Shown here in pieces: positions 1,960 through 23,382 of a stretch of 23,382 bases of DNA. Both the position numbers and the translations under genes were made by a program. Where the stretch lies: positions 128,001 through 151,382 of IMG/VR virus record IMGVR_UViG_3300025853_000035; one strand, given 5' to 3'. The notes beneath the pieces are model-generated. The model was not told the DNA's origin. It worked only from the letters and a program-made list of their open reading frames with translations, and searched no databases. How positions within the stretch are numbered: the stretch's first letter is position 1; each line of letters begins with the position of its first letter. Origin of the DNA: a virus (Duplodnaviria > Heunggongvirae > Uroviricota > Caudoviricetes).

Positions 1960-2004
1960 ATGGTAACTGAAAATGGTTAATATGTCAAGGGAGAATGTCG
2001 GTGG
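1960..2004 (-). promoter_or_regulatory. Sigma70-type promoter for the tail tube gene with upstream CCACCGACATT box
   Basis: Minus strand TTGACA(1988-1983)-N17-TACCAT(1965-1960). The spacer contains TTAACCAT. CCACCGACATT lies at 2004-1994. Confidence 0.65.
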
Positions 2005-2012
2005 ATGGCAAA

Positions 2013-3327: not shown

Positions 3328-3837
3328 TCAGTGCTTCACGATGCGCTTGGGACCGCCACGGCCCATGGAGACGGAGCCAAGGCCACGCAGGGCGTAGCCG
3401 ATTTCAGCCGGATATTTCTCAGGCGCGAGGCGGGCGTCGAACTTGAGCGCGATCACGTCAACCTGCAACGAGGTCAGGTTCGATCCGGTGTTCGCGACTT
3501 CCGGGTTGCCGGCGATCAGGTGATCGGCGAGCAGCGCGGTCGCGATCTTGACGGCGCGCGGCACGACGGAGTCATCGACCAAGATGTTCTCCTTGTCGCG
3601 GATGTGCGACCGGGGCCACGCGAGGCCGGAGGTCTCGTGCGTCTTCTTGCCGAACCAACGCACGCGCTCGTCGAGGATGCGGCTGGCCCACATGATCAGA
3701 TTCTCTTTGGTCGTTTCGTCAGCAATGACGCTCCACTGCGAGTGGATGTTGACCGAGAGGATGTCGTCCACCTCTTCGACGGACGCATAGGCATTCGCCG
3801 TGACGCGGCCGGTGCCGTCTTCAACTAGGATGTCCAT
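3328..3837 (-). CDS. Head-tail adaptor (DnaT-like family of phage neck proteins)
   Basis: 169 aa, LVEDGTG...ANAYASVEE...GLAWPR...VP.AVK.A signature. Confidence 0.75.
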   Translation of the reverse strand: MDILVEDGTGRVTANAYASVEEVDDILSVNIHSQWSVIADETTKENLIMWASRILDERVRWFGKKTHETSGLAWPRSHIRDKENILVDDSVVPRAVKIATALLADHLIAGNPEVANTGSNLTSLQVDVIALKFDARLAPEKYPAEIGYALRGLGSVSMGRGGPKRIVKH

Positions 3838-4267
3838 GATGTGTAGCCTCTATGGAAATGGGCGTGGAATTGTTGAACCGATAAATTCCATCGCCATTCA
3901 GCTTCGTTTTAAGACGATGGCAATTGGCGCAGAGCGTCTGGAGATTGGCGGGATCATCGTTGCTGTGATCACCGTCGATGTGGTCCACATCTAATTGACA
4001 AGGGTCTTCTGCGACGAAGCCGCATTTGACGCATGAGTCCCCTTTTACGGACGTGTAACGGTATTTTTCCCATGCCCACCAATAATTTGGTGGGCGAATG
4101 CTTTTGGTCTTTTGCGGGTTTCGCTTATGGGAGCATACGCCGCAGAGGGCTGAATATGTTTGCTCACCTGCCGCGTTCAGTCGATTTTTTCTTTGAGGCC
4201 GCTCGTCGCAGGAAACGCAGATACCTTGGACTGTTTCCGACTCTCTTTTGCGCCGTTTCGCGCCCAT
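3821..4267 (-). CDS. HNH endonuclease
   Basis: CVKCGF...LDVDHIDGDHSNDDPANLQTLCANCHRLKT HNH core, extra N-terminal CxxC pairs, visibly more AT-rich than its neighbours. Confidence 0.9.
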   Translation of the reverse strand: MGAKRRKRESETVQGICVSCDERPQRKNRLNAAGEQTYSALCGVCSHKRNPQKTKSIRPPNYWWAWEKYRYTSVKGDSCVKCGFVAEDPCQLDVDHIDGDHSNDDPANLQTLCANCHRLKTKLNGDGIYRFNNSTPISIEATHHGHPS

Positions 4268-7478: not shown

Positions 7479-7523
7479 AGGATACGAGAAATTAACCTTA
7501 ATGTCAAGCTAAAATGTCGGTGG
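7479..7523 (-). promoter_or_regulatory. Sigma70-type promoter for scaffold/capsid genes with upstream CCACCGACATT box
   Basis: TTGACA(7507-7502)-N17-TATCCT(7484-7479). The spacer begins with TTAAGGTTAA. CCACCGACATTTTAGC lies immediately upstream. Confidence 0.7.
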
Positions 7524-7547
7524 AGCCTAAAAAAGTGCCTGACTTAA

Positions 7548-10152: not shown

Positions 10153-10962
10153 TCATGCTGCGTAGAGGTAAAGCACCTCTTCGATCACCGGGTGGCGGAC
10201 CACGTCGGCGCGGGTCAGGGCGTAATAGCCGATCCGCTCCCAGCGGCGGGGTTCGGCCGGCAGGCGCTCCTCGCCCGTGATGAAGCCCGGCAGTTCCGGC
10301 TCGAACGCTTCCTCCTCGGCTTCCTCGCGCTGCTTGAGACGGCGCGTGATGTCGGCCAGACCGCTGACGGTGGTGCCGAGTTCCTTGCGATCCCACTGCT
10401 CGGTGTCGCCGGTGACGATCATCTTGCTGTTCTCGCCGATGCGGGTCAGCAGCATCTTCATCTGGTCGGCGGTGGCGTTCTGCATTTCGTCGGCGATGAT
10501 GATCGCGTTCTTGAACGTGCGGCCACGCATATAGGCGAGTGGCGCGATCTCGATCTCCTCGCGCTGGAGCATCTGCTGGACGGCGATGACGCCGAAGCAT
10601 TCGTTCAGCACGTCCACGATCGGGCGGGTCCACGGAGCCATCTTCTCGTTGAGCGTGCCCGGCAGGTAGCCGAGGTCGTCGCCGGTCGCGACATTGGGGC
10701 GGGTAATGATGATCTTGTGGAATTCACCGGCGATGTATTTGTCCGCTGCTTCACGAACGGCCATGTAGGTCTTGCCGGTGCCGGCCGGCCCCTCGACGAT
10801 GAGGATGTCGTGCCGCATCTGGCGGAGCTTGCGCAGATAGCCTTTCTGGTTGGGAGTGGAAGCGGTGAGCTTGGGCGGGGCTTTGTGCTTGGTGGATTCC
10901 ATCTTCTCTGCGATGTGTGAGGCGTTGGTGGGGAAGAAGGTCTGCTTCTTGTTGCCGGACAC
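10153..10962 (-). CDS. phoH: PhoH-family ATPase
   Basis: Walker A GPAGTGKT, LGYLPG..EKM.PW, YMRGRTF, DEMQN, LLTRIG, TGD..Q.D, DVVRH. The GTG start at 10962 has an AGGAG RBS. Confidence 0.95.
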   Translation of the reverse strand: MSGNKKQTFFPTNASHIAEKMESTKHKAPPKLTASTPNQKGYLRKLRQMRHDILIVEGPAGTGKTYMAVREAADKYIAGEFHKIIITRPNVATGDDLGYLPGTLNEKMAPWTRPIVDVLNECFGVIAVQQMLQREEIEIAPLAYMRGRTFKNAIIIADEMQNATADQMKMLLTRIGENSKMIVTGDTEQWDRKELGTTVSGLADITRRLKQREEAEEEAFEPELPGFITGEERLPAEPRRWERIGYYALTRADVVRHPVIEEVLYLYAA

Positions 10963-11457
10963 AGAAAACTCCTGTGAGCGTGTGAGGGAGGGAGCAAAGG
11001 AACGCCCATCACTCGGCAAAATTTATATAACGTCGCGGCATAATGGCGGTGAAACGATACGGCCGATACGCCTTTGGGTCCCCGGCTATGCCGTGAACGC
11101 CTTCGGTGGTCCCCCTACGGGGTCGCAAAAATAAAATTTGCCGGGGTGGCTTTTGGGCGTGATGCTGCGATGGGGAGGTGGTCTGGGTCCCTCCGGGGGG
11201 TCCCAATTTTCATTCCGACCGGGGTGGCGTGATGCCGATAGGTGAAGGGGAGTGATGTTCCGGTGAAGGGTTGCCGGTTCGGAACGGAGTGGTTAACGGT
11301 TGAGGTGGCCGTTGGGCGTGATGGTAGCACAGCTATATGGGAAAGTCCACCTATTTTGATTCAGGTAGACACTTAGTGCGCCCAGAATCGGGGCAATGGG
11401 TATACCCCCAAAGGAACCCCGCCCGGCCAAAAAATTTCGCTAAAGGATGCGATCCGA

Positions 11458-11543
11458 ACAAAAAAGAGCGCGACTCGATCGAGTCGCGCTCAGTGATTCG
11501 CTTTCGCTTATGTGATTCGTTTGGTGATTCGTTATGCGATTCG
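11458..11543. promoter_or_regulatory. 26-bp perfect palindrome (possible terminator) plus GANTC cluster
   Basis: GAGCGCGACTCGATCGAGTCGCGCTC at 11466-11491 next to an A-tract; GANTC at 11472, 11481, 11495, 11514, 11526 and 11538. Confidence 0.6.
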
Positions 11544-11599
11544 TTTACGTTAATGCGATGGCATGGCCATGGGTAGGGCATGGCCATGCCATGGCTAGG

Positions 11600-11839
11600 C
11601 TATGCCATAGCGCCACGATAGGTCTGGCAACGGGTCACGCGCAGGGCTTGGCGGCCAGCGAAGGCAAGGGAGTCGCGCCATGCGCCTAGTTCCGCCTCAG
11701 TCAGGGCATAGCGTGCCGCCGCGTCCGCCAGCGTGATTGCGCCCGCGTCGATAGCGGCGACAATGGCAATCTTGCGCTTAGGCGTGAAACGCGCGTTTGA
11801 GGCGGGAAGGGCGTTCAAAAGGGTTTCGATGTTGTTCAT
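11600..11839 (-). CDS. sciP: SciP-like CtrA inhibitor (DUF1153, small HTH protein)
   Basis: LPASNARFTPKRKIAIVAAIDAGAITLADAAARYALTEAELGAWRDSLAFAGRQALRVTRCQTYR follows the recalled SciP pattern LP....RW..RRK..VV.AV.GG..S..EA..RY.L..EE...W......G...LR.TR.Q.YR. Confidence 0.8.
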   Translation of the reverse strand: MNNIETLLNALPASNARFTPKRKIAIVAAIDAGAITLADAAARYALTEAELGAWRDSLAFAGRQALRVTRCQTYRGAMA

Positions 11840-11987
11840 TGCCTGTCTCCATTTGGTTAGTGATTCGTTTATCTATTATTCCACCGATTCGGTCAAGCAC
11901 ATTATCCTTAATATCTCATGCCATTTCGTTAACCATATCTGTTAGGGTTAATATCCATGGCTTTGCTGTTAACCCTAACGCCTAGCA

Positions 11988-12109
11988 GGCACGGGCAGGG
12001 AAGGCCGCTAGGGCAGGCAGGGGCACGGGCAGGGAAGGCCGCTAGGGCAGGCAGGGGCACGGGCAGGGAAGGCCGCTAGGGCAGGCAGGGGCACGGGCAG
12101 GGAAGGCCG
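11988..12109 (+). repeat. 34-bp G-rich tandem repeat, ~3.6 copies
   Basis: Unit GGCACGGGCAGGGAAGGCCGCTAGGGCAGGCAGG; period 34 (ACGGGC at 11991, 12025, 12059, 12093). Confidence 0.95.
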
Positions 12110-12155
12110 GAATCGAAAGGGCCGCCCTAGGGCGGCCCTTTTGGGGTGGCGGCCC

Positions 12156-12434
12156 TTATGCTTGGGCCGCTTTCCACTTGGCAATTTCAGCCTGCCGACG
12201 GGCCTCAAAATCACCCGTTGCGTAGGGGCTGCGGCCATGGGTGAAGCTGGAGTCGGCCCGTTCGATCCGCGACTTTTTCGGCAGATTGCGGTCGCTGTTA
12301 TCGCTCAGCATGACTTCACAACGGCCATACTTGTAAAGCGCCGTTTCGTGAGCCTGACGCTCAGAAACCGCCGAAATGAAAGCCACGAAAACCTTGTTCT
12401 TGTAGATTGCGAAGGTGGGGATGTTCTTGGCCAT
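12156..12434 (-). CDS. Hypothetical protein, 92 aa (cassette 2)
   Basis: Start reassigned to the ATG after GGAGACAGAC (MAKNIPTF...). Confidence 0.75.
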   Translation of the reverse strand: MAKNIPTFAIYKNKVFVAFISAVSERQAHETALYKYGRCEVMLSDNSDRNLPKKSRIERADSSFTHGRSPYATGDFEARRQAEIAKWKAAQA

Positions 12435-12714
12435 TGTCTGTCTCCGTTTGCGTCTCGATGACTTACTTCTAGGGCCGATTTTTGATTCGGTCAAACACTT
12501 TCTGCAATTATTTTGGCGCGTCACTTCCTCCACCAAAACAGGCGGATTCATGATCTAGGCCGCTAGGGCGGGCGCGTCATGGCCCGCTAGGGGCGGCGCT
12601 GGGCGTCGATAGGCCGCGCCGGGCAGTCTGGCCGCGCTTTGCCGCTAGGCGCGCTCCTTGGGCGTCTGGGCGGCTCCTACGGGCGCAAAATGACCGCGAT
12701 CCATAATTAGGCCC

Positions 12715-12855
12715 TCAGAAACCGGCTTGCAGCTTGCTGAAAACCTCATTGACGAAATCCGCCACTTCCATCGCCACGAACACGGCACCGACCGCGACCG
12801 CAATCTTTACAGAAAATCCGCCGATCAGCAGGCCAACAATTCGGTTCATGTCCAT
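12715..12855 (-). CDS. Small membrane protein, 46 aa (cassette 3)
   Basis: MDMNRIVGLLIGGFSVKIAVAVGAVFVAMEVADFVNEVFSKLQAGF after GGAGACAGAC. Confidence 0.7.
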   Translation of the reverse strand: MDMNRIVGLLIGGFSVKIAVAVGAVFVAMEVADFVNEVFSKLQAGF

Positions 12856-13020
12856 GGTCTGTCTCCTTTCCAGACATAGGATGGACGCGGCGACCGATTC
12901 GGTCAAGCACTTTCTCCACTTATTTTTCGACTCGTTATGGTTAACGCGGCTGGGCAATTTATTAACCTTAACAGATTGTTGGGGCGCAAAAAAAGGGAGG
13001 CTTTCGCCTCCCTCCTTGGC

Positions 13021-13365
13021 TTAATGGCCGTAGTTGCAGCCGATATAGTAGAGCCGCCCGGCGACCAGATAAGCGATGTCCGCCGATCCGCAGCAGCCCG
13101 CATTAGCGGCTTCCTCATAGGCCGCCCATTCGGTGGCGCGGTCGGCGAAGGCGGCGCGATAGTTGTCGCGATAATCCTCGTCCGCAACCGCGTCATGGAA
13201 AAGCGCGTGCGCCTCTTCCACCGTGGCAACCGCTGCCAGCGCGCGGACCATGGTGCGCTCGCCCTCGAACGCGAGGAGGGCCGCAGCCGCCTCCGCAGCG
13301 GCGAGGTCCGCAGCCTCGATCACCGAAGCGGAGCAGTTGGAGCGGAGGAAGAGGAAGTAGTTCAT
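13021..13365 (-). CDS. Hypothetical protein, 114 aa (cassette 4)
   Basis: GGAGACAAG RBS; C-terminal GCCGS...IGCNYGH; terminator follows. Confidence 0.8.
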   Translation of the reverse strand: MNYFLFLRSNCSASVIEAADLAAAEAAAALLAFEGERTMVRALAAVATVEEAHALFHDAVADEDYRDNYRAAFADRATEWAAYEEAANAGCCGSADIAYLVAGRLYYIGCNYGH

Positions 13366-13437
13366 GGCTTGTCTCCTAGCCGGGTTGATGAGTGATGATT
13401 CTCATATTCCACCGATTCGGTCAAGCACTTTGTTTGC

Positions 13438-13638
13438 CTATTGGTATTGTCTTTTTGATGCGGACATAAGCACAACATGCCCAGCCATTTTCGCAATCAT
13501 GCCCAGCGCCAGCAGGCTGGCGGCGTTCATCTCCAGCGGCGTTTCTGGCCATGTCATATCAGGGGCGATTGTCGTGGCCGCCCAGACGCAAAGCAAGGCG
13601 AAGGCATAAAGGGCGGCGATCAGGATGGCTTTAGGCAT
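13438..13638 (-). CDS. Small membrane protein, 66 aa (cassette 5, second gene)
   Basis: GGAGACAA RBS; MPKAILIAALYAFALLCVWAA..., two hydrophobic segments. Confidence 0.7.
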   Translation of the reverse strand: MPKAILIAALYAFALLCVWAATTIAPDMTWPETPLEMNAASLLALGMIAKMAGHVVLMSASKRQYQ

Positions 13639-13657
13639 GGTATTGTCTCCGGTTCGA

Positions 13658-13885
13658 TCAGGCGGCCAAAGGCGCGGCATATTCAGCGAAAAGCGATTCC
13701 GCTTCCGCGAGCGTCAAGCCCTTGGCGACGCATTCCCAATCGTGGACCATTGCGCCCGAAACGGACTCGGCCCGATAGATCGGCGCGGCCTGCACCCACT
13801 TAGGCGCGCGGATGGAAACGGCGAAACCCGCCGCGCGCTGCACGATCATGACATTTTCGTTAGCTGACTTGCGAATGACTTTCAT
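13658..13885 (-). CDS. Hypothetical protein, 75 aa (cassette 5)
   Basis: MKVIRKSANE... after GGAGACAGAC; ends in LAA. Confidence 0.75.
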   Translation of the reverse strand: MKVIRKSANENVMIVQRAAGFAVSIRAPKWVQAAPIYRAESVSGAMVHDWECVAKGLTLAEAESLFAEYAAPLAA

Positions 13886-14042
13886 GGTCTGTCTCCATCG
13901 GCGCTGCGCCGTTGGACGGTAAGTCACATACTCCACCGATTCGGTCAAGCACTTTCGCAAGAAAAACGACGCCACAAGGGAAGCTGGCGTTAACCTTAAC
14001 AGATTGTTACCACCAAAAGAAAAGGGCCTTTCGGCCCTTCGC

Positions 14043-14429
14043 TCAATATGGCGAGCAACCATATTTGGCCCATTCCTTCACGGCGATTCCGCGCTTCCAT
14101 AGGGCGTGTTCGCGATCCTGCGCATCCTCGCAGCCTTCCGCCTCAAACCACCACCGGAGGGCGTCCGCACGGGCGATTCCGTGGTCGTGCTGGAGGTCGG
14201 TCAATTCCTCCTCCAGCTTGGCGATAGCGGCGGCAGAACGGACGGCCTCGCGGTCATTCTCTTCCGCGATCATCTTGCCCAATTCATCGAATGCGACGGC
14301 GTAGTCCTCCAGCGTGACAGGGCAATGCACGCCGCCATTGCGCGGGCGGAAACCGTAGGCGTCTTTGTGCATGTCCGAATAGATGACGGCGGCCTGTTCG
14401 AGGTCGGTGAGTGCGTTCCAGTCGGTCAT
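14043..14429 (-). CDS. Phage hypothetical protein, 128 aa (cassette 6)
   Basis: GGAGGAGACAGAC RBS; YSDMHKDAYGFRPR motif recalled from other phage proteins. Confidence 0.8.
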   Translation of the reverse strand: MTDWNALTDLEQAAVIYSDMHKDAYGFRPRNGGVHCPVTLEDYAVAFDELGKMIAEENDREAVRSAAAIAKLEEELTDLQHDHGIARADALRWWFEAEGCEDAQDREHALWKRGIAVKEWAKYGCSPY

Positions 14430-14569
14430 TGTCTGTCTCCTCCGGCACCGCGCCGGTGACTTCCTTCTAGAGTCGTTCCAGCGATTCGGTCAAGCACTTT
14501 GTTCGGTAGATAGTTGTTAAGGTTAACGCCGGGCCGGGCACAAAAGAAAAGGGCCTTTCGGCCCTTCCC

Positions 14570-15193
14570 TTAATCCTCCCTCCTTCCGTCTTCCCGGAAG
14601 GTGTAACCGTTCGCCTCCATAGCGTCGGCAATCTGTTCATCGCTTCGCAAATATTCGTCCTCGTCCCGGAGGCGATCATAGAGCCACCGGCCCAAATCCT
14701 TGGCGATCTCCTTGATCTCCTCGGCACGTTCATGCGCGCCGTCGGTCCAATCAAATTCGCTGGGTTCCGCTTGCGTGCCGTAATAGTGATGATAGGTGAC
14801 GACATAGGCGGAACGGTAGAAGGTCCGGGCGTGCAAGGCCGCGATGCGGTCCGCTAGGGCGTGTAAGACCGTATCCTGCGGCGCATAGTCCCGCACGGCC
14901 TTTGCCATCCCCTTGGCATAGGTCATCGTGCCTTCAAAGGCCGCATAATCGCTTTGCGAGTAGCCCAGCGACCACCAGATGTTTGCATCGTAGCGCGTTG
15001 CGCCCGACATCAGGGTGACAGGGTGCGTCTTGAAACTGACGCCCATAAGCTCGGCGATCGTCTTGAAGTCGTCGATCGTGGATTCATAATCCGTCTCGTC
15101 GCGGCAATCCAGCCACCACTGCTTGGCGGTCTCCTTGGCCGAGTCGCTCAATTCGTCATAGGTGTAAAGCGTGATCGTCGTTTCGGTCGGCAT
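14570..15193 (-). CDS. Mobile-element protein, 207 aa, resembling the family often labelled 'antitoxin of toxin-antitoxin stability system' (cassette 7)
   Basis: Y..DELSD.AKE.A..W...SQ.D.A.FEG...YAPQD..LH..AD...DL.RWLY..L..E.EYL.SDE......AN.YTF.E.G.R pattern, recalled rather than searched. Confidence 0.7.
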   Translation of the reverse strand: MPTETTITLYTYDELSDSAKETAKQWWLDCRDETDYESTIDDFKTIAELMGVSFKTHPVTLMSGATRYDANIWWSLGYSQSDYAAFEGTMTYAKGMAKAVRDYAPQDTVLHALADRIAALHARTFYRSAYVVTYHHYYGTQAEPSEFDWTDGAHERAEEIKEIAKDLGRWLYDRLRDEDEYLRSDEQIADAMEANGYTFREDGRRED

Positions 15194-15357
15194 TGTCTGT
15201 CTCCTCCGCATTGGTGCGGTAGGGCTGGAGTAGAGGGCTAAAGTGATTCGGTCAAGCACTTATTCCAGATCAAGAATGGTTAACGGGCTGGGGCGATTTC
15301 GTTAAGGTTAACGGATGAGGCGGGCGGAAGAAAAGGGAGGCTTGCGCCTCCCTTCGG

Positions 15358-15702
15358 TCATTCCGCCGGGGAGTAAATTACCCGCCCTTCGTCGCGCAGC
15401 TTCTCCAGATCGCATTCGATAGCGTAATTGTTGAAATACCAGCAGCGGCCGATGATTTCGTTTGCGCCGTCGTCGTGCGTCGTCATTTCCTCCGCAACGC
15501 ATGGGGCGGAAGTCAGCCCGACGAAAGGATTTGCCTGCCCCGCGTCAAAGTGGGTGAAAGAGCCATTGCAGGCGTAAGACTCGAACAAGTCCGCCATGAC
15601 AAGCCAGTAATTGCGGTCGGCGTGGTCGGCGATATATTCCCGCGCTTCTTCGTCGGCGGTGATCTCCAGATCGCCATTTTCGAGGATCGTGCATTCAATC
15701 AT
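15358..15702 (-). CDS. Acidic hypothetical protein, 114 aa (cassette 8)
   Basis: MIECTILENGDL... after GGAGACAGAC; terminator follows. Confidence 0.8.
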   Translation of the reverse strand: MIECTILENGDLEITADEEAREYIADHADRNYWLVMADLFESYACNGSFTHFDAGQANPFVGLTSAPCVAEEMTTHDDGANEIIGRCWYFNNYAIECDLEKLRDEGRVIYSPAE

Positions 15703-15807
15703 GGTCTGTCTCCGTTGTGATGATTCGTTTTGGCATAATCCATCGATTCGGGCAACCACTTTATCCATAAAAAGAAAGCCCCGGCGCGCTAGGCTCCGGG
15801 GCGATGA

Positions 15808-15873
15808 TTAGAAGCTGGCCGCAACGGTAATCAGCAGCAGGCCGGTAAAGAGGCGGGAAAGGGCTATCAGCAT
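15808..15873 (-). CDS. Hydrophobic micropeptide, 21 aa
   Basis: MLIALSRLFTGLLLITVAASF; TGATG coupling to the upstream gene; ends just before a terminator. Confidence 0.55.
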   Translation of the reverse strand: MLIALSRLFTGLLLITVAASF

Positions 15874-16178
15874 CAGGCCGCCGCGTCCTCCTCTTCGTCA
15901 AACTCCTCGGCAAGATAGACGCCGTGGCCGCTATGTTCCACCTGCCCGGCGGGCTGGATCGTCATGGCCGGGCTAAGGCTCATTTCGGGCATGTCAGGGC
16001 CGAACGCTTCGCCGGTGATGTAAAGGCCGTCCCCGACCTCCTGCCGCCTGTTGCTGAACTCGATAGCCGCCCCGTCAGCGGTGAGGGCGTCGGCCTTGGC
16101 CTGCGCCTCCTCCAGCGTGTCGGCCAAAATATAGAGGCTGGCGCAAATCATGATTTCGGTCTGGAACAATTTCTGCAT
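15873..16178 (-). CDS. Acidic hypothetical protein, 101 aa (cassette 9, second gene)
   Basis: Own AGGAGACAGAC RBS; ends in EEEDAAA. Confidence 0.8.
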   Translation of the reverse strand: MQKLFQTEIMICASLYILADTLEEAQAKADALTADGAAIEFSNRRQEVGDGLYITGEAFGPDMPEMSLSPAMTIQPAGQVEHSGHGVYLAEEFDEEEDAAA

Positions 16179-16205
16179 GGTCTGTCTCCTTGCGCGGTGT
16201 GCTGA

Positions 16206-16505
16206 TTAGTGGTGGCGGCGGTAGGCGGCGTTCAGGTCGCCATAGGGATCGTAGCGCACGGCGCGAGCCACTGCCCGGCGCTTCGCCTCCTCCAACGTCT
16301 CGCAATATTCCCCGCCGTGATAGCCGCCCAACTGTGTGTTGGCAAAGTGGACGGCGTAGGGGTGCATCTCATTGTGCGGAAGGTGGCGGATAACCACCGC
16401 GCCCGGCGCGGTCGCGCCTCGTCCGGCCATACCATAGAACTGGACGGATTCCTCTTTGGCCTTGGCAATCAGGGCAGGGCTTCCGTGGGTGAAAGGTGCG
16501 GTCAT
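16206..16505 (-). CDS. Hypothetical protein, 99 aa (cassette 9)
   Basis: GGAGACAGAC RBS downstream of the repeat promoter. Confidence 0.75.
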   Translation of the reverse strand: MTAPFTHGSPALIAKAKEESVQFYGMAGRGATAPGAVVIRHLPHNEMHPYAVHFANTQLGGYHGGEYCETLEEAKRRAVARAVRYDPYGDLNAAYRRHH

Positions 16506-16670
16506 TGTCTGTCTCCCTCCGGCTGGGTGCCGGTGATTCGTAACTAGGGGAGGGGACCGATTCGGTCAATCACTTATTCCAGAAAAGAAATGGTTAACGG
16601 GCTGGGGCTGGGCGTTAAGGTTAACAGGAAGGGCAAGCGAAAGAAAAAGGGAGGCTTTCGCCTCCCTCCC

Positions 16671-17033
16671 TTAGCGTGCCCAATAGGTTACGCCGTTGAA
16701 CTCGCCGCTTGTGTAATCCATCTGGAGGGCGCGGGCGGCGGCCTCCCAATCGATATGACAGGCAGGCCATGCGGACTCCTTCGGGATCGCGCCGATCTCC
16801 TCCGCCAACTCCTCGGCATAGTCCTTGAAATAGGAGTCACGAATGAAGGTGACAGGGAACCACGAATTTTCCCATTCATGATCGCCGCCGTATCCCCGGA
16901 ACTGCTCGATAAAGGCGCGCATGGCGGCGGCCTCTTCCTTTTCGTCGCTTTCCGGGTCCGCCTCGATCTCCTCGATCAGGTCGATGATGTCGCGGATGTC
17001 CATAACGTCTTGATATTCGTCGATGGTGGTCAT
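16671..17033 (-). CDS. ArdA-like acidic antirestriction / DNA-mimic candidate, 120 aa (cassette 10)
   Basis: Very D/E-rich; DYAEELAEEIG.IP......HIDWEAAARAL.MDY resembles the ArdA C-terminal domain. Confidence 0.6.
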   Translation of the reverse strand: MTTIDEYQDVMDIRDIIDLIEEIEADPESDEKEEAAAMRAFIEQFRGYGGDHEWENSWFPVTFIRDSYFKDYAEELAEEIGAIPKESAWPACHIDWEAAARALQMDYTSGEFNGVTYWAR

Positions 17034-17183
17034 TCGGTCTGTCTCCGTCGGCTCTGTGCCGGTGATTCGGAGATAGGGGAGGGGACCGATTCGGTCAAGC
17101 ACTTATTCCAGAAAAGAAATGGTTAACGGGCTGGGCCGGGGCGTTAACCTTAACGAATGATTACCAGCGAAAGAAACGCCGCC

Positions 17184-17258
17184 CTATTTGAGGGCGGCGG
17201 CTATGAGGATAAGGAAAAAGCCGGTTATCGCCCCGGCTATGGCGCGTAGCAGCGTCAT
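17184..17258 (-). CDS. Hydrophobic micropeptide, 24 aa
   Basis: MTLLRAIAGAITGFFLILIAAALK; ATGA coupling; similar to 15808-15873. Confidence 0.55.
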   Translation of the reverse strand: MTLLRAIAGAITGFFLILIAAALK

Positions 17259-17665
17259 CGGCTTGCCAGATCATCAAAGCGGCGTTGCATCAGGTCCGAT
17301 ACGTTGCCGTCGTCGGGCATGTCCGCAAAAGTGATGTCGGCAAAGTCATCCCACACCCAATCATAGCCTTGCTTCCACTCGCCCAGCACGGCGGGATTGC
17401 CCCGGCCCGTCTCGACAAATTCGCGGAAGGCGTCGCGGACATAGGTTTCCCCGTCGCCGGTCAGGGGATTGTCAAGGAAGGTCCGACAATGGCCGCAATG
17501 CTGCGGGCAATCCGCTTCCCCGCCGCCTTCCGAATAGGGGCCTTGCGGGAAGGAGTTGGAGTCCGGCTCATGCCCATCGGCCGCGCCTGAACGGATCAGG
17601 TCAGCCTTGATGTCGGTCGCGCAATTGTCGCAATAGATGTCGGATTGAAAGATGTAGGCGTCCAC
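17255..17665 (-). CDS. Hypothetical Cys-containing (possibly Zn-binding) protein, 136 aa (cassette 11)
   Basis: GTG start after GGAGACAGAC; CDNC and CPQHCGHC motifs. Confidence 0.8.
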   Translation of the reverse strand: MDAYIFQSDIYCDNCATDIKADLIRSGAADGHEPDSNSFPQGPYSEGGGEADCPQHCGHCRTFLDNPLTGDGETYVRDAFREFVETGRGNPAVLGEWKQGYDWVWDDFADITFADMPDDGNVSDLMQRRFDDLASR

Positions 17666-17820
17666 GGTCTGTCTCCTAGTTGCCTAGCCTGATTCGCATA
17701 GTCCACTGATTCGGTCAAGCACTTTGTTCGGCGACAAGTTAACAAAGGGTGCGATTTTGTTAAGGTTAACGGAAGCGTCCGGGTAAGGAAAAGGGGAGGC
17801 GTTTACCTTCCCTCTTTGGT

Positions 17821-18327
17821 TCATCCCCACATCCACACCTTGCCCGACTCATGGTCAAAGCCAAATTCAAGCCGGTTTGCCCGCGTCGCGTCGTTCAACC
17901 GTTCCAGACAATCGGCGTTGCCGTCGTCGGTGAAGGATACGCCATGCCCTACGGAAAGCATGTAGAGGGTGGAGCCGATGCGCTCATATGACAGGCCGTT
18001 GCTGGTATAGCGCAGGCCTTCGCTTCCGGGTTCCAGATCAAGCGCCGATTCGATGTCGGCGGCGTTGGCGGTCATGAACGCTTCGCAATAGGCCTTGCAG
18101 CGCTGATAGGTTTCGTCGTCCAGCGTGTAGATTGTGCCGGTGTCGCCTTCCTCGCGCTCTTCCTCGCAAGCTTCATCCATCTCGCTATATTGCAAATCCT
18201 GCAACATGGTCGCGACGAAGTCGGCAAGGATCGGGCAGGCCTTAAAGTCAGCCTTGCGGGCGGCTTCCCGTTCGCGGGTGGCGTCGTCGATTTCGTGGAA
18301 GCCGGTATAGTCGCGGGCGTCGGGCAT
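17821..18327 (-). CDS. Acidic hypothetical protein, 168 aa (cassette 12)
   Basis: GGAGGAGACAGAC RBS; GHGVSFTD motif. Confidence 0.8.
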   Translation of the reverse strand: MPDARDYTGFHEIDDATREREAARKADFKACPILADFVATMLQDLQYSEMDEACEEEREEGDTGTIYTLDDETYQRCKAYCEAFMTANAADIESALDLEPGSEGLRYTSNGLSYERIGSTLYMLSVGHGVSFTDDGNADCLERLNDATRANRLEFGFDHESGKVWMWG

Positions 18328-18505
18328 TGTCTGTCTCCTCCGGCTTGCTTGCCGGTGATTCGTTTCTGAAACATTCCGCTGATTCGGTCAAGCACATATT
18401 CCAGATTTAGATGGTTAACGGATCGCTCGATTTCGTTAAGGTTAACAAATGGTAGTGGTCAAAAAATTTGGTTAACGGGGAGGGCTTCCCCGTTAACCTT
18501 TGGTG

Positions 18506-18898
18506 TCAGGCCATTTCCTCCTCGGCCTTGTCGATGACGGGCCGGAGTTCTTCCCAGATCGCTTCCGCGAAGTCGTTGGCGCTGTAGTCGCTGATAACGT
18601 CATAGCCGTCATTCCCATAGACCAGATACCACTGGCCCAACAGGGTGCCTTCCGCGTCGCGGGCGACGATCCGGTCCTCGTCGGTCGTGAAGAGCGCGCC
18701 GATGATGGTGCCCTTGTCGGTCGAGCGCTTGACGGTCCATTCCTCGCCATCGTTGACGCTGACAGCGCAGCCCTTGGCCAGCAGGGCGTCCACCAGTGCG
18801 GCGCAGATGCGGCCTTCGATGCGGATGCGCTTGGCGAGGCGCTTTTCGCCCTTGGCTTCGGCGTTCTGGGCGTAGATGGTGAAGTTTCCGTAGTGCAT
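18506..18898 (-). CDS. Phage hypothetical protein, 130 aa (cassette 13)
   Basis: GGAGACAGAC RBS; V.DGEE and LVYGNDGYDVISDY motifs. Confidence 0.8.
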   Translation of the reverse strand: MHYGNFTIYAQNAEAKGEKRLAKRIRIEGRICAALVDALLAKGCAVSVNDGEEWTVKRSTDKGTIIGALFTTDEDRIVARDAEGTLLGQWYLVYGNDGYDVISDYSANDFAEAIWEELRPVIDKAEEEMA

Positions 18899-19055
18899 CG
18901 TCTGTCTCCGTTTGCGGTGATTCGTTCTTAGGACGGATCAGGTGATTCGGTCAAGCACTTCCTCCATTTTTCTTTTGGTTAACTTTTCCCGGCCGTTCGT
19001 TAAGGTTAACAGACGCGGGCGGTCAAAGAAAAAGGGAGGCTTTCGCCTCCCTCTC

Positions 19056-19448
19056 TTACTCGCCGAACCAGTAGCAGCGGATATAGGTTTCGATTGCGGA
19101 GTCTTCCTCGTTCGTCGTGGTGAGGTCGGTCCACGGCGTGCCCCAATCCTGCCATTGCAGCCGCCCATAGCTGGGCTGACAGTAGGCGTCCAGATCGCCC
19201 ACGATGCGAAGGGCAGGGCCGCCGGTCGAAAGGAGGATTTCAAATTCCTCCGGCGTGGCGTCTTCCTTCGCGCCGGGGGAATACCAGCCAGTCCGAACGG
19301 AAACCGAAAGGGCGTCTTGCTGGCATTCCTCGCGGAACGTGTCCGCCGCGTCGTGGTCGCCTTCCTGCTCCGCTGCGGTGAGGGCCTGCGCCTTCTCCAC
19401 GATGTCGGAAAGCCATGCTTTGGCGTTGGCGATTGCGTGCTGAGACAT
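19056..19448 (-). CDS. Acidic phage hypothetical protein, 130 aa (cassette 14, second gene)
   Basis: AAGGA RBS; ILLSTGGPALRI.G.L...LQWQDWGTPW motif. Confidence 0.8.
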   Translation of the reverse strand: MSQHAIANAKAWLSDIVEKAQALTAAEQEGDHDAADTFREECQQDALSVSVRTGWYSPGAKEDATPEEFEILLSTGGPALRIVGDLDAYCQPSYGRLQWQDWGTPWTDLTTTNEEDSAIETYIRCYWFGE

Positions 19449-19459
19449 TGCCGGTCCTT

Positions 19460-19591
19460 TCAGGCGAAAGTGAAGAGGTTGCGGCGGGCGTTCTTCGCCT
19501 TGCGCTGCGCCTTGCGGTCGCGCTTGTCGGCGCGCTCAACGCGCTTGAGTTCGCGGCCATAGCCCTTCTTGTCTTCCAGAATGATCTTCAT
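19460..19591 (-). CDS. Basic Lys/Arg-rich peptide, 43 aa (cassette 14, first gene)
   Basis: MKIILEDKKGYGRELKRVERADKRDRKAQRKAKNARRNLFTFA directly after GGAGGAGACAGAC; below the ORF-track size cutoff. Confidence 0.7.
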   Translation of the reverse strand: MKIILEDKKGYGRELKRVERADKRDRKAQRKAKNARRNLFTFA

Positions 19592-19758
19592 GGTGTCTGT
19601 CTCCTCCGCTTGATTGCGGTGATTCGTTTCTGGACCATTTAGATGATTCGGTCAAGCACTTATTCCAGAAAAAGAATGGTTAACTGGCTGGGGCGGTTTC
19701 GTTAAGGTTAACGCAGGTGGCCGGGCGAAAGAAAAGGGAGGCGCTGGGCCTCCCTTGT

Positions 19759-20016
19759 TCAAACGCCGCGCCCGTGCGGACCAGCCTGCTCGCAGAACAC
19801 GGCCCGGCCTTGCTCCGCGTTGGCCTTGGTCAGCCATGCGCAATCTTCGCCGGTCAGGCTATGGTCGATGACATATTCGTCCGCGCCCCGCGTCTCGATC
19901 AGCAGCCACAAGTCGGGCGCTTGTGCGATCTCCGGCGGGGCAGAGGGCTGGGCCTCCCCGCAGGCCGCCAGCGGCAGCAGGGAGACCATGGCGAGCGCGA
20001 TGACAAGGCGGCTCAT
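19759..20016 (-). CDS. Putative lipoprotein, 85 aa (cassette 15, second gene)
   Basis: Signal peptide MSRLVIALAMVSLLPLAAC with lipobox LAAC; ATGA coupling. Confidence 0.7.
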   Translation of the reverse strand: MSRLVIALAMVSLLPLAACGEAQPSAPPEIAQAPDLWLLIETRGADEYVIDHSLTGEDCAWLTKANAEQGRAVFCEQAGPHGRGV

Positions 20017-20255
20017 GCGTTCGCCTCAGCGGCGGCGTTCAGCGCCTCCTTGGCGTCGTCCGGGAAGCGATCCCAGAAGTCGGCGACGCAATCCATGCCG
20101 TAGCAGGGTTCTTCCGACACCTCCGGCGAAGGGGCCTTGTAATCGGCCACACAACCCCAAAGCATCTGATACAGGTCGGCGTTGATGCCGTCCCAGCATT
20201 CAGCCACTTCGTCCGGGCGGACGACTTCAAGAGCGGGGTGAGGTGCGATGGTCAT
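20013..20255 (-). CDS. Acidic hypothetical protein, 80 aa (cassette 15)
   Basis: GGAGACAGAC RBS downstream of the repeat promoter. Confidence 0.75.
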   Translation of the reverse strand: MTIAPHPALEVVRPDEVAECWDGINADLYQMLWGCVADYKAPSPEVSEEPCYGMDCVADFWDRFPDDAKEALNAAAEANA

Positions 20256-20424
20256 TTCGTCTGTCTCCGTGCGGCTTGCTTGCCGCTGATTCGGGGATAG
20301 ACAAGGGGACCGATTCGGTCAAGCACTTATTCCAGAAAAAGAAATGGTTAACGGGCTGGGCTTGGGCGTTAAGGTTAACAGGCGGCGGGCGGCGCGGAAA
20401 AGGGAGGCTTGCGCCTCCCTCCAG

Positions 20425-20631
20425 CTAGGCCGCCTTTACCGTCACCTTGACCGGGCCGCCGAGGTCGCACCGGCCATCGGTCAAGCCTTCGCTGATTTCG
20501 ATAAGCCCGGCGCGCAGCGTGTCGCGCCCGATCATGTCATCGGCGAAATAGTCGAAAAGTTCGGTCGCATAGCGCCGGGCGGTGGCGACGCATGGTTCGG
20601 CGCGGAAAGCGTCTTGGCGTTCGTCAAGCAT
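20425..20631 (-). CDS. Hypothetical protein, 68 aa (cassette 16, second gene)
   Basis: GGAGGT RBS before MLDERQDAF...; ends in KAA; terminator follows. Confidence 0.7.
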   Translation of the reverse strand: MLDERQDAFRAEPCVATARRYATELFDYFADDMIGRDTLRAGLIEISEGLTDGRCDLGGPVKVTVKAA

Positions 20632-20845
20632 GGGCGGGCACCTCCGTGATGACAAGAGCGCCTTTGCGGGCGGCGTTGTGTCCTACGGCCTTCGCCACGG
20701 CGGACGAATAGAAAAGGCTCTGCCCGATGAAGTCGCCGCAGAAGCGGGCGACGAAGCGCGCTTCGGGGTAGCCGCAAAATTCCGTGGTGATGGTATAGCG
20801 CCGATCCGGGCGACCGTCGTTCGTTACAGGGTGATTAGCGGGCAT
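20624..20845 (-). CDS. Hypothetical protein, 73 aa (cassette 16)
   Basis: MPANHPVTND... after AGGAGACAGAC; EFCGY...RFVARFCGDFIG. Confidence 0.75.
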   Translation of the reverse strand: MPANHPVTNDGRPDRRYTITTEFCGYPEARFVARFCGDFIGQSLFYSSAVAKAVGHNAARKGALVITEVPAHA

Positions 20846-21001
20846 GGTCTGTCTCCTTGTTGTGATTCGTGGATAGACAAGGGGACCGATTCGGTCAAGC
20901 ACTTATTCCAGAAAAAGAATGGTTAACGGGATAGGGCTGGGCGTTAAGGTTAACAGGAGGGGCCGGGTAAAGAAAAGGAGGCATAAGCCTCCCTATCTCC
21001 C

Positions 21002-21424
21002 TCATTCGTTGATAAAGAATGGCTTATACGCGCCCCGGTCATGGAACCCACCGCGATAGGGAACCACGCGGGGCCAGTAATGTCCGCGATTCTGGACTCG
21101 CCCATCGTCGGCATAGTCCGCCGGATCGATTCCATGCTTCCCATAGTAATCCTCGCGATTGCTATGGGTGGAATAAAACACGCCATCGAAGAATCCGCCG
21201 AAAATTAAATGGTCGCGGTAAAATTCGTCACGCCGGGCGGCCATATAACCATCCAGATAGGCCCATACCCAGCCGGGCGTTCCCTTGGGCGTGTCGGCGC
21301 GCATTGCCGACAGGGACGCTTGAATCTCAGCGTTAGGCAAGCCGCAAGTGATGGCCATGCTGCACAGGTCAGCCATCCGAGTCTTGAAAGAGTCACGAAG
21401 GGCGAGGGCGCGTTCAAGGCGCAT
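21002..21424 (-). CDS. Hypothetical protein, 140 aa (cassette 17)
   Basis: MRLERALALR... after GGAGACAGAC. Confidence 0.75.
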   Translation of the reverse strand: MRLERALALRDSFKTRMADLCSMAITCGLPNAEIQASLSAMRADTPKGTPGWVWAYLDGYMAARRDEFYRDHLIFGGFFDGVFYSTHSNREDYYGKHGIDPADYADDGRVQNRGHYWPRVVPYRGGFHDRGAYKPFFINE

Positions 21425-21571
21425 AGTCTGTCTCCAGCCGCTTGATTGCGGTGATTCTTTTCTGGACCTTTCGCCCGATTCGGTCAAGCACTTATTCCAG
21501 AAAAGCATTGGTTACTAAATGACCGCGCCGCGTTAAGGTTAACAGGTTCGGCACGGTAAAGGAAAGGCGGC

Positions 21572-21724
21572 CTAAGCCGCCATCTCCTCCAGAACCTTGT
21601 TAATCGCCGCTTCCCGGCTCATGCCGCCCTTAATCAGGGGCTGGGCTTTCGTTTCGATCTCGTCGGCCAGTTGGAAGGCAATGGCGCGAAGTTCGCGGGG
21701 CGATCGGCGGGTCGGCTGGGTCAT
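21572..21724 (-). CDS. Hypothetical protein, 50 aa (cassette 18)
   Basis: MTQPTRRSPRELR... after GGAGACAGAC; ends in MAA. Confidence 0.7.
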   Translation of the reverse strand: MTQPTRRSPRELRAIAFQLADEIETKAQPLIKGGMSREAAINKVLEEMAA

Positions 21725-21825
21725 TGGTCTGTCTCCGGTTTCGATGATTCGGTTTCTCATATCCCACCGATTCGGTCAAGCACTTATTCCACAAAAAGAA
21801 AGGGAGGCTTTCGCCTCCCTCCTTT

Positions 21826-22086
21826 TCAGGCCAGCCGCCCGACATAACAGTAACTGTTATATTGTTCGGGGTGAATCTCACCGTCCTTGCAAAGCATGTC
21901 GGTCCAGTTGTTGAACGCTTCGGAAATGGCCGGTTCGTCGTCCTCGCCATATGCCTCGATAACGTCGGGCAGGACTTCGGAGTCGAAGCGTGCGCTCAAC
22001 TCCTCTTCGCTGGCGATTCCGCCAAAATCCACGGCGTAGGATTCGACCATGTCCAGCAGGTCCACGCGGTTCCAATTAATGGCCAC
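21826..22086 (-). CDS. Acidic phage hypothetical protein, 86 aa (cassette 19, second gene)
   Basis: GTG start with GGGAGG RBS; AFNNWTDMLCKDGEI motif. Confidence 0.75.
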   Translation of the reverse strand: MAINWNRVDLLDMVESYAVDFGGIASEEELSARFDSEVLPDVIEAYGEDDEPAISEAFNNWTDMLCKDGEIHPEQYNSYCYVGRLA

Positions 22087-22174
22087 GGCGCGTCCTCCCC
22101 TTGGCGATCCGCTGGGCGAGGGCGGCGATGCGCTTGGCGCGCTCCTCGCGGGCTTTTTTCTGGCGGGCGGTCAT
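22076..22174 (-). CDS. Basic Arg/Lys-rich peptide, 32 aa (cassette 19, first gene)
   Basis: MTARQKKAREERAKRIAALAQRIAKGRTRRGH directly after AGGAGACAGAC. Confidence 0.6.
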   Translation of the reverse strand: MTARQKKAREERAKRIAALAQRIAKGRTRRGH

Positions 22175-22337
22175 GTCTGTCTCCTTGGCGGCTTGATTGC
22201 CGTTGATTCGTTTCTAGGGCAGGGGACCGATTCGGTCAAGCACTTATTCCAGAAAAAGAATGGTTAATGGGCTGGGCCGCCGTGTTAACCTTAACGAATG
22301 GTGAGGCCCAAAAGAAAAGGGCCTTTCGGCCCTTCCC

Positions 22338-22589
22338 TTAGAAGGAACGGTCAGCCATATCCTCCAACGTGCAAACCAGCCCGTCGAAGTCTTCTTCCGG
22401 TCCCAGCAATTCGGCCATCTCGATAGCCATGGGCAGATCGACGCCGTGGTCGTCCGCCAAGTCGCGGATATAGCCGTAGCGATCGAAGCAGCCGTCCTCT
22501 TCGTAGCGTTCGAGCGGGATGGTGCGCGCCGCGTTAAGCCGGAGGACGGTGGCGAGGGGGATGCCTTCCGGCGAGCGAAGATTGGTCAT
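22338..22589 (-). CDS. Acidic phage hypothetical protein, 83 aa (cassette 20)
   Basis: MTNLRSPEG... after AGGAGACAGAC; LLGPEEDFDGLV..LED motif. Confidence 0.75.
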   Translation of the reverse strand: MTNLRSPEGIPLATVLRLNAARTIPLERYEEDGCFDRYGYIRDLADDHGVDLPMAIEMAELLGPEEDFDGLVCTLEDMADRSF

Positions 22590-22755
22590 CTGTCTGTCTC
22601 CTTGCAGCTTGCTTGCTGCTGATTCGTTTCTGGCATTGTCAGATGATTCGGTCAAGCACTTATTCCAGAAAAAGAAATGGTTAACAGGCTGGGCGATCCT
22701 GTTAAGGTTAACGGGAAGGCCGGGCGCAAGAAAAGGGAGGCGAAAGCCTCCCTCC

Positions 22756-22968
22756 TTAGTGGACCTTGTTGCCGCGCGCGTCGCGCTGAAAGCGTCCCTT
22801 GATATTGGACCGGGCCAGATTGGAATGGAGCCGGGCCAGATGGTCGGCGGCTTCCCGGCACGTCCGACTCCATGTCGTCGTGCCGACATATTCCCACCGC
22901 TTGAGAGCTTCGCTGAATACGAAAAGGTCAATCTTGGGATAGTCCCGCTTGTCGCCATAGCTTACCAT
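22756..22968 (-). CDS. Hypothetical protein, 70 aa (cassette 21, second gene)
   Basis: GGGAG RBS, overlaps the upstream stop, terminator follows. Confidence 0.7.
   Translation of the reverse strand: MVSYGDKRDYPKIDLFVFSEALKRWEYVGTTTWSRTCREAADHLARLHSNLARSNIKGRFQRDARGNKVH

Positions 22969-23351: not shown

Positions 23352-23382
<31 letters not shown>

What the first reader, a model, noticed from the sequence alone, without database searches (positions are those of the whole stretch)
11600..11839. Phage-encoded SciP homolog (inhibitor of the master cell-cycle regulator CtrA)
Seen: a 79-aa protein matching the recalled SciP/DUF1153 pattern along its length, including R-x4-RK and LR.TR.Q.YR. It is the last cassette in the transcription direction and has several TTAAC words upstream (11928-11979). 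Known: SciP binds CtrA and blocks activation of CtrA-dependent genes such as flagellar and chemotaxis genes. Inference: the phage reprograms host development or receptor production, and may feed back on its own TTAAC-bearing promoters.
Basis: partly seen in the sequence, partly recalled or inferred. Interest (0 to 1): 0.85.

Follow-up and report, generated by a model that had tools for sequence, protein, structure and literature searches.

The report
Phage-borne divergent SciP-family regulator gene
A large phage of Erythrobacter/Sphingobium-type bacteria carries a small, conserved gene for a divergent relative of SciP, the host protein that silences the cell-cycle master regulator CtrA, and the gene sits in a promoter array full of CtrA/SciP-type DNA words, so the phage probably tampers with that host circuit, although this has not been tested.

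Summary
The ORF at 11600-11839 (-) encodes 79 aa, hits Pfam DUF1153 at 63.8 bits (cut-off 23.5), and has the R-x4-RK and LR.TR.Q.YR patterns. It has its own promoter, RBS and a strong terminator. Three metagenomic phage relatives keep it (78-94% aa; dN/dS 0.12-0.20).

It is a family member, not a SciP equivalog. NCBIfam CtrAInhibSciP gives 64.8 bits against a cut-off of 100, while true SciP from Croceicoccus and Brevundimonas scores 137-139. It lacks the canonical N-terminal V-I-G-P-x-G motif. It is at most 45% identical to any of 301 Sphingomonadales genomes and sits on a long phage-only branch.

The window belongs to a 151-kb siphovirus related to Erythrobacter phage XM05. XM05 also has an unannotated DUF1153 gene; its relatives L02 and Lacusarx have none. 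Twelve of 24 cassette promoters carry TTAACCAT, the published SciP ChIP-seq motif and CtrA half-site, 27-29 nt upstream of the -35. The SciP-like cassette alone has it inverted. The phage has no GcrA, CcrM-type methylase or CtrA of its own.

Most likely (about 0.45) it is a SciP-like modulator of CtrA-dependent transcription, acting on both host and phage promoters. CtrA binding is not shown; the complex prediction gave no verdict. I found no paper describing a phage-encoded SciP.

The parts
11600..11839 (-). CDS of the 79-aa DUF1153/SciP-family helix-turn-helix protein (stop codon included)
   Evidence: ORF. Pfam DUF1153 63.8 bits. NCBIfam SciP 64.8 bits, below the cut-off of 100. PDB sequence matches to the DUF1153 NMR structures 2oa4 and 2jrt. 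AF2 model pLDDT 79.6 with helices 3-9, 20-32, 37-43 and 48-66. dN/dS 0.12-0.20 against L003 and L004.
11841..11850 (-). Ribosome-binding leader GGAGACAGGC, a variant of the GGAGACAGAC shared by the other cassettes
   Evidence: Sequence; cassette table.
11861..11896 (-). Core promoter of the cassette: -35 TTGACC abutted by GAATC, then TAGATAAACGAATCAC; 100% identical in the two metagenomic relatives
   Evidence: The generic E. coli-type promoter scan did not call it, so this is inferred from 24-fold repetition in front of the RBS, not shown.
11928..11979 (-). Upstream TTAAC-word region: GGTTAAC, ATTAACCCTAAC and ATGGTTAAC. The TTAACCAT word is inverted relative to all other cassettes and sits 40 nt rather than 27-29 nt from the -35
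11466..11491 (-). Intrinsic terminator (11-bp stem, 8 GC pairs, T-run) ending the cassette array
   Evidence: conserved in L003 and L004.
11988..12109 (.). Perfect 34-bp tandem repeat (3.6 copies) separating this cassette from the preceding gene; function unknown
   Evidence: partly conserved in L003, absent in L004.

Best explanation
The gene encodes a divergent, phage-adapted member of the SciP (DUF1153) family. It is a small basic three-helix HTH protein made from one of about 24 near-identical phage promoter cassettes. The most likely mechanism follows host SciP: it joins host CtrA at promoters carrying the TTAACCAT half-site and blocks productive transcription there. This would silence the host's CtrA-activated late-S-phase genes (flagellum, pili, chemotaxis). 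It would also feed back on the phage's own TTAACCAT-bearing cassette promoters, helping to switch the early array off or to re-time it. Shown here: family membership, purifying selection, phage location, the motif architecture, and that the likely host family (Erythrobacteraceae) has both CtrA and a canonical SciP. Inferred: CtrA binding, the direction of the effect (repression), and which promoters are targeted.
For: Family: Pfam DUF1153 63.8 bits. The best NCBIfam hit is CtrA inhibitor SciP, E 6e-18. PDB sequence and fold matches are to the DUF1153 structures 2oa4 and 2jrt. Residues kept: R17, R22, K23, R43, Y44, L46, E50, W54, G62, L66, R67, T69 and Q72 are retained out of the columns at least 90% conserved in 80 canonical SciPs. 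R17 and R22 align with the R-x4-R pair that I recall as required for CtrA binding in Caulobacter SciP (Gora et al. 2010; that paper is not held here, so not verified). Real gene: it is conserved at 94, 90 and 78% in three metagenomic phage relatives in the same position, with dN/dS 0.12-0.20. Motif link: the SciP ChIP-seq consensus in Caulobacter is (G/A)TTAACCAT(A/G), a CtrA half-site (PMC4083442). GTTAACCAT occurs 14 times in this phage against 0 for the reversed control, and at 27-29 nt upstream of the -35 in 12 of 24 cassettes. It also follows the -35 directly in two late promoters. Host CtrA control of such regions in phiCbK-like phages, including the relative Lacusarx, was proposed, and shown by EMSA for three other phages (PMC9437464). 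The phage encodes no OmpR-type DNA-binding domain, GcrA or CcrM-type methylase, so any CtrA involved must come from the host. Croceicoccus (Erythrobacteraceae) has CtrA (411 bits) and SciP (139 bits). The nearest bacterial relative of the phage clade (G177) lies directly beside a CtrA-like response regulator. TTAAC words are enriched upstream of host sciP in Sphingomonadales: 8 of 17 loci against 11 of 400 background windows.
Against: It scores below the curated SciP equivalog cut-off, 64.8 against 100 bits. It lacks the N-terminal V-I-G-P-x-G motif that is at least 90% conserved in canonical SciP, and it differs at about 18 conserved columns, several of them in helix 3. It sits on a very long branch, so its specificity may have changed. 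The TTAAC/TTAACCAT architecture is equally present in L02 and Lacusarx, which have no DUF1153 gene, so the protein is dispensable for that architecture. No canonical TTAA-N7-TTAA box occurs in the window; half-sites are 6, 22 and 28 bp apart. Whether SciP itself contacts DNA or only CtrA is disputed in the literature. No expression or interaction data exist for this protein.
Confidence: 0.45

Rival explanations
1. It is a phage transcription factor that binds the phage's own TTAAC / GTTAACCAT boxes directly through its HTH, independently of CtrA. In this reading it has been recruited from the SciP family as a conventional repressor or activator of the cassette or late promoters.
For: It has a three-helix HTH fold and net charge +4. 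One school holds that SciP binds DNA itself, and the ChIP motif GTTAACCAT equals the phage box. Helix 3 differs from canonical SciP, which fits a retuned specificity. Its own promoter carries the box in the opposite orientation, as expected for an autoregulated gene.
Against: L02 and Lacusarx carry the same boxes without any DUF1153 gene, so another factor must read them there, and host CtrA is the published candidate. The CtrA-contact arginines, as I recall them, are conserved.
Confidence: 0.25
2. It is a SciP mimic acting as a decoy or antagonist. It occupies CtrA, or competes with host SciP, without repressing. This would keep CtrA-dependent phage promoters active or protect CtrA from ClpXP, thereby holding the cell in a state favourable to the phage.
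For: It retains the conserved core but lacks the canonical N-terminal motif and differs along helix 3, the pattern expected of a partial-function mimic. The phage promoters appear to depend on CtrA-type sites.
Against: Nothing here distinguishes repression from antagonism. The function of the missing N-terminal motif is unknown.
Confidence: 0.12
3. It is an HTH protein of unrelated function, for example a transposase-type or packaging-related DNA-binding module, and its DUF1153 similarity reflects only the fold.
For: Weak secondary hits to HTH_Tnp_1 (E 1e-3), IS66 TnpA (E 8e-4) and phrog_151 transposase (E 1e-3).
Against: The DUF1153 and SciP hits are 14 orders of magnitude stronger and cover the whole domain with all invariant residues. 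No transposase or terminase partner lies adjacent.
Confidence: 0.08

Closest known systems
SciP (CC_0903 / NCBIfam NF051866, Pfam DUF1153) of Caulobacter and other Alphaproteobacteria
   Same: Same domain along residues 8-75, same three-helix HTH fold and the same invariant residues (R17, R22, K23, R43, Y44, E50, W54, G62, L66, R67, T69, Q72). It is associated with TTAACCAT-bearing promoters, the motif found at SciP ChIP-seq peaks.
   Different: It scores 64.8 bits against 137-139 for genuine SciP, and is only 36-45% identical to any Sphingomonadales homologue. It lacks the N-terminal V-I-G-P-x-G motif and is 79 aa long rather than about 90-100. It is encoded by a lytic-type phage rather than a chromosome and is driven by a phage cassette promoter. 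CtrA binding is untested.
DUF1153 gene of Erythrobacter phage XM05 (XM05_97, annotated as hypothetical protein)
   Same: It is a phage-borne DUF1153 (65.1 bits) in the small-gene cassette array of a related 152-kb siphovirus, with a similar C-terminal ...TYRxAM[AG] ending.
   Different: It lies at a different position in the array, not last. Only about 47% identity over 36 residues is detectable with the window protein. It replaces the R22, R43 and Y44 equivalents, and it does not group with the window clade in the tree.
Host-regulator mimicry and CtrA wiring in phiCbK-like phages (phiCbK GcrA homologue; CtrA sites in terminal small-gene regions; Mascolo et al. 2022, PMC9437464)
   Same: These are phages of Alphaproteobacteria whose terminal small-gene regions are dense in CtrA-type sites, and which may carry a homologue of a host cell-cycle regulator.
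   Different: Here the homologue is of SciP, not GcrA; no GcrA was found. That study scanned for SciP binding sites but reports no phage-encoded SciP.

Membership tests
Pfam DUF1153 (PF06627) | Score above the gathering threshold over the whole domain | tested here: met
   63.8 bits against 23.5, residues 9-75 on profile positions 20-87.
Pfam DUF1153 (PF06627) | Family-invariant residues and the three-helix HTH fold of the solved members 2oa4 and 2jrt | tested here: met
   Invariant and near-invariant columns are kept. phmmer gives 2oa4 E 3.5e-11 and 2jrt E 1.9e-10. The AF2 model's best PDB fold match is 2jrt, TM 0.61.
SciP equivalog (NCBIfam NF051866, CtrA inhibitor SciP) | Score at or above the curated equivalog cut-off of 100 bits | tested here: not met
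   64.8 bits, matching model positions 22-90 only. Croceicoccus and Brevundimonas SciP score 139 and 137.5.
SciP equivalog (NCBIfam NF051866, CtrA inhibitor SciP) | Conserved N-terminal V-I-G-P-x-G segment of canonical SciP | tested here: not met
   It is absent from all four phage-clade proteins and from XM05, and present in at least 90% of 80 canonical sequences.
SciP equivalog (NCBIfam NF051866, CtrA inhibitor SciP) | The arginine pair (R-x4-R) reported as needed for CtrA binding (recalled from Gora et al. 2010; that paper could not be read here) | tested here: met
   R17 and R22 are present, and both columns are at least 90% conserved in the family. The functional meaning rests on recalled literature.
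SciP equivalog (NCBIfam NF051866, CtrA inhibitor SciP) | Direct binding to CtrA and inhibition of CtrA-activated transcription | not testable with these tools
   This needs biochemistry or genetics; see Tried and rejected for the one modelling attempt.
SciP equivalog (NCBIfam NF051866, CtrA inhibitor SciP) | Association with (G/A)TTAACCAT(A/G) promoter sites | tested here: inconclusive
   The motif is abundant in the phage's promoters and matches the published ChIP motif. However, it is also abundant in relatives without the gene, and no binding was measured.

The most novel reading that the evidence does not exclude
A lytic phage uses its own SciP-like protein as a promoter-class switch on host CtrA. 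Host CtrA drives, or gates, the approximately 24 early cassettes through upstream TTAACCAT half-sites. The phage SciP-like protein, made from the last cassette, then converts CtrA at those sites into a repressor. Promoters with the box in the spacer (tail and capsid promoters) would respond differently. This would copy the host's S-to-G1 promoter switch as a viral early-to-late timer, and at the same time shut off flagellum and pilus synthesis.
Probability: 0.2. Interest if true: 0.85.

Novelty: new variant of a known kind. Interest (0 to 1): 0.6.

Why it matters
SciP is a core component of the alphaproteobacterial cell-cycle circuit, and how it acts (through CtrA, through DNA, or both) is still disputed. 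A natural, minimal, fast-evolving phage version would be a compact test object for that question. It lacks the conserved N-terminus and sits next to two dozen near-identical promoters that carry the SciP/CtrA half-site at a fixed distance.

It would also extend the idea of phage control by host CtrA ('lytic deferment'). Phages would then not only read CtrA but actively manipulate it, with likely consequences for motility, receptor display and superinfection.

In the collections searched such genes are rare. Only XM05 among 50,697 phage records matched, plus one temperate IMG/VR contig. I found no paper in the held library that describes one.

Tried and rejected
1. Complex prediction of the phage protein (alignment A4) with Croceicoccus CtrA (alignment A3) returned 'no answer' (score 0.00, controls not run). 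I treat this as neither for nor against binding.
2. tblastn of the phage protein against 50,697 phage records found nothing at E<=1e-3. At E<=10 it found only a partial XM05 hit. The XM05 gene became clear only with an HMM, so the first 'no match' was a sensitivity limit.
3. The search for related loci with the single protein in IMG/VR found nothing. Alignment A1 was too diverse for a genome-contig scan.
4. The 'recent capture from the host' idea is rejected. The best identity in 301 Sphingomonadales genomes is 45%, and the typical value is 37-42%.
5. A full CtrA box (TTAA-N7-TTAA) is absent from the window.
6. Foldseek against the PDB gave no hit at E<=1e-3; the top hit was 2jrt at E 0.046, which is usual for a 79-aa HTH.
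7. The Gora 2010, Gora 2013 and Tan 2010 papers are not held. Searches for R35A and R40A gave nothing useful, so the CtrA-contact residues rest on memory.
9. The generic sigma-70 scan called no promoter in 10900-13200. The cassette promoter is inferred from its 24-fold repetition.

Full report
OBSERVATION

The minus-strand ORF 11600-11839 exists and encodes 79 aa. Pfam DUF1153 matches at 63.8 bits (gathering score 23.5, E 1.6e-17) over residues 9-75. phmmer against the PDB finds the two solved DUF1153 proteins, 2oa4 (E 3.5e-11) and 2jrt (E 1.9e-10). An AlphaFold2 model built from an 83-sequence alignment has mean pLDDT 79.6 and a short N-terminal helix followed by a three-helix HTH. Its best PDB fold match is 2jrt.

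The gene has the cassette RBS (GGAGACAGGC, 11850-11841) and the cassette core promoter (-35 TTGACC at 11896-11891). A strong intrinsic terminator follows at 11491-11466, and then comes non-coding DNA up to phoH. TTAAC words lie at 11928-11973. Across the window TTAAC occurs 84 times against 17 expected.

SETTING

The window is bases 128001-151382 of a 151,382-bp IMG/VR virus rated 100% complete. Its portal-to-tail genes are 76-79% nt identical to Erythrobacter phages XM05 and vB_EliS-L02 and to Sphingobium phage Lacusarx. The host is therefore probably a member of the Sphingomonadales. A Croceicoccus genome (Erythrobacteraceae) has both CtrA (NF045991, 411 bits) and a canonical SciP (139 bits).

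IS IT A REAL, MAINTAINED GENE?

A search of 5.8 billion proteins found three close relatives at 94, 90 and 78% identity. Two of them lie on 6-kb metagenome contigs with the same small-gene order, the same promoter core and the same terminator. Pairwise dN/dS of the window gene against these two is 0.12 and 0.20. That indicates purifying selection, although the counts are small.

IS IT SciP?

It belongs to the family but is not an equivalog.
- NCBIfam NF051866 (CtrA inhibitor SciP) is its best hit, but at 64.8 bits against a curated cut-off of 100, and only on model positions 22-90. Genuine SciP from Croceicoccus and Brevundimonas scores 139 and 137.5 bits.
- An exhaustive HMMER search of 1.84 billion representatives gives 1,070 hits. 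Apart from the phage relative, all have E>=1.6e-10 and 31-52% identity.
- In 301 Sphingomonadales genomes, 277 have a homologue, but the best identity is 45% and the typical value 37-42%. This is therefore not a recent host capture.
- In a maximum-likelihood tree of 100 sequences, bacterial SciP follows taxonomy on short branches (median 0.09). The four phage proteins form a clade with 99% support on a branch of length 4.4.
- Against 80 canonical SciPs, the phage protein keeps R17, R22, K23, V27, A29, G33, A40, R43, Y44, L46, E50, W54, G62, L66, R67, T69 and Q72. It changes about 18 other conserved columns, many of them conservatively (W18F, R21K, V to I). It also lacks the N-terminal V-I-G-P-x-G motif entirely.
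- R17 and R22 correspond to the R-x4-R pair that I recall from Gora et al. 2010 as essential for CtrA binding. I could not read that paper here.

THE PROMOTER CONTEXT IS THE STRONGEST FUNCTIONAL CLUE

The phage has 24 co-oriented cassettes with the core GCTTGACCGAATC. They run from the SciP-like gene (the last one) through the record's end and wrap to its first 2.5 kb.
- Twelve cassettes have TTAACCAT 27-29 nt upstream of the -35.
- Seventeen have a TTAACCTTAAC/GTTAAGGTTAA double box at 51-56 nt.

GTTAACCAT is exactly the consensus found at SciP ChIP-seq peaks in Caulobacter, (G/A)TTAACCAT(A/G), and it contains a CtrA half-site (Fumeaux et al. 2014, PMC4083442). It occurs 14, 34, 22 and 8 times in this phage, XM05, L02 and Lacusarx respectively, against 0-1 for the reversed control word. 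Two late promoters (tail, about 1980-2010; scaffold/capsid, about 7495-7525) carry TTAACCAT or TTAAGGTTAA directly after a TTGACA -35.

Mascolo et al. 2022 (PMC9437464) reported CtrA-type sites concentrated in the terminal small-gene regions of phiCbK-like phages, including Lacusarx. They showed CtrA binding for three other phages. They scanned for SciP sites but describe no phage-encoded SciP.

The SciP-like cassette is the only one in which the word is inverted (ATGGTTAA, 40 nt from the -35) and the double box is missing. This suggests it is regulated differently from its neighbours.

There is no full TTAA-N7-TTAA box in the window; half-sites are 6, 22 and 28 bp apart. TTAAC words are enriched upstream of host sciP in Sphingomonadales, in 8 of 17 loci against 11 of 400 background windows. 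The presumed host order therefore uses such words at a known CtrA target.

WHAT THE PHAGE DOES NOT HAVE

No GcrA (PF07750), no CcrM-type N6/N4 methylase (PF01555) and no OmpR-type DNA-binding domain (PF00486) were found in the 151-kb record. Any CtrA acting on these promoters must be the host's. The SciP-like protein is the only cell-cycle-regulator homologue found.

DISTRIBUTION IN PHAGES

An HMM built here, and then PF06627, showed that XM05 also has a DUF1153 gene. It is annotated as hypothetical protein XM05_97 and scores 65.1 bits. It lies in the cassette array but not at the end, and it is highly diverged from the window protein: about 47% identity over 36 aa, with the R22, R43 and Y44 equivalents replaced and a similar ...TYRxAM[AG] tail. 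L02 and Lacusarx have none.

A canonical SciP query finds only XM05 among 50,697 phage records. In IMG/VR, four canonical-looking hits lie at contig ends and are probably host flanks; I did not check this. One internal hit lies on a 68.7-kb contig with an integrase. Phage-borne DUF1153 genes are thus rare and patchy, and the TTAAC architecture does not depend on them.

A HINT FROM BACTERIA

The closest bacterial relative of the phage clade (genome G177; 45% identity; weak tree support of 70) is a divergent DUF1153 gene. It scores 90 bits on the SciP model and lies immediately next to a CtrA-like response regulator, which is 64% identical to CtrA and scores 335 bits against a cut-off of 350. 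Even divergent family members therefore stay linked to CtrA-type regulators.

INTERPRETATION

- Most likely (0.45): a SciP-like modulator of CtrA-dependent transcription that acts on host late-S-phase genes and on the phage's own TTAACCAT promoters.
- Rival (0.25): a CtrA-independent DNA-binding regulator of the phage boxes.
- Rival (0.12): a decoy or antagonist of host SciP/CtrA.
- Rival (0.08): an unrelated HTH protein.

The remainder is unassigned. CtrA binding is not shown.

NOVELTY

I found no paper in the held library describing a phage-encoded SciP. The closest precedents are the phiCbK GcrA homologue and host-CtrA control of phage promoters. I rate this a new variant of a known kind: phage copies of host cell-cycle regulators, and the DUF1153 family.

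No claim in this report rests on the unpublished genome G345; its locus L137 was left out of alignment A3.

Noticed in passing
window 11988-12109: A perfect 34-bp tandem repeat (3.6 copies; unit GGCACGGGCAGGGAAGGCCGCTAGGGCAGGCAGG) lies just upstream of the SciP-like cassette. It is present in relative L003 and absent in L004.
   Followed up: partly
window 11500-11599: Between the stop codon and the terminator lie a 22-bp ATGGCATGGCCATGG-type repeat (11558-11599) and four phased (A)ACGAATCAC words, each containing a GANTC site. These are conserved in L003 and L004.
   Followed up: no
window 1980-2010 and 7495-7525 (minus strand): Two late promoters share CCACCGACATTYT..CTTGACAT, followed immediately by TTAACCAT or TTAAGGTTAA. 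The CtrA/SciP-type word therefore sits in the spacer, unlike in the early cassettes.
   Followed up: partly
G000:C1:2592-2786 (+) and 3834-3952 (-), outside the window: Arrays of 6-8 and 5 TTAACCTTAAC boxes, the second array at exact 27-bp spacing, lie at the far end of the cassette region. This could be a control region or an origin.
   Followed up: no
L001:20503-20839 (XM05 record 79914-80250): XM05_97, annotated as hypothetical, is a DUF1153 protein. A canonical SciP query aligns across XM05_97 and into XM05_98, so the annotated start or gene split may be wrong.
   Followed up: partly
L094:635-1752 (genome G177): A divergent DUF1153 gene lies directly upstream of a CtrA-like response regulator (64% identical to CtrA, just under the CtrA equivalog cut-off). 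This may be a paralogous SciP/CtrA pair.
   Followed up: partly
L153:4803-5378: A temperate-looking 68.7-kb IMG/VR contig (integrase, DUF5131) also encodes a DUF1153-domain protein (65.8 bits).
   Followed up: partly
window 23352-23382: A run of 31 C at the end of the record is probably an assembly or sequencing artefact. The cassette array continues at the start of the record, so the record is circularly permuted or has unrecognised terminal repeats.
   Followed up: no
window 11862-23310: Every cassette has GAATC (a GANTC site) abutting the -35, and most have a second one near the presumed start site. Yet the phage has no GcrA or CcrM-type methylase.
   Followed up: partly
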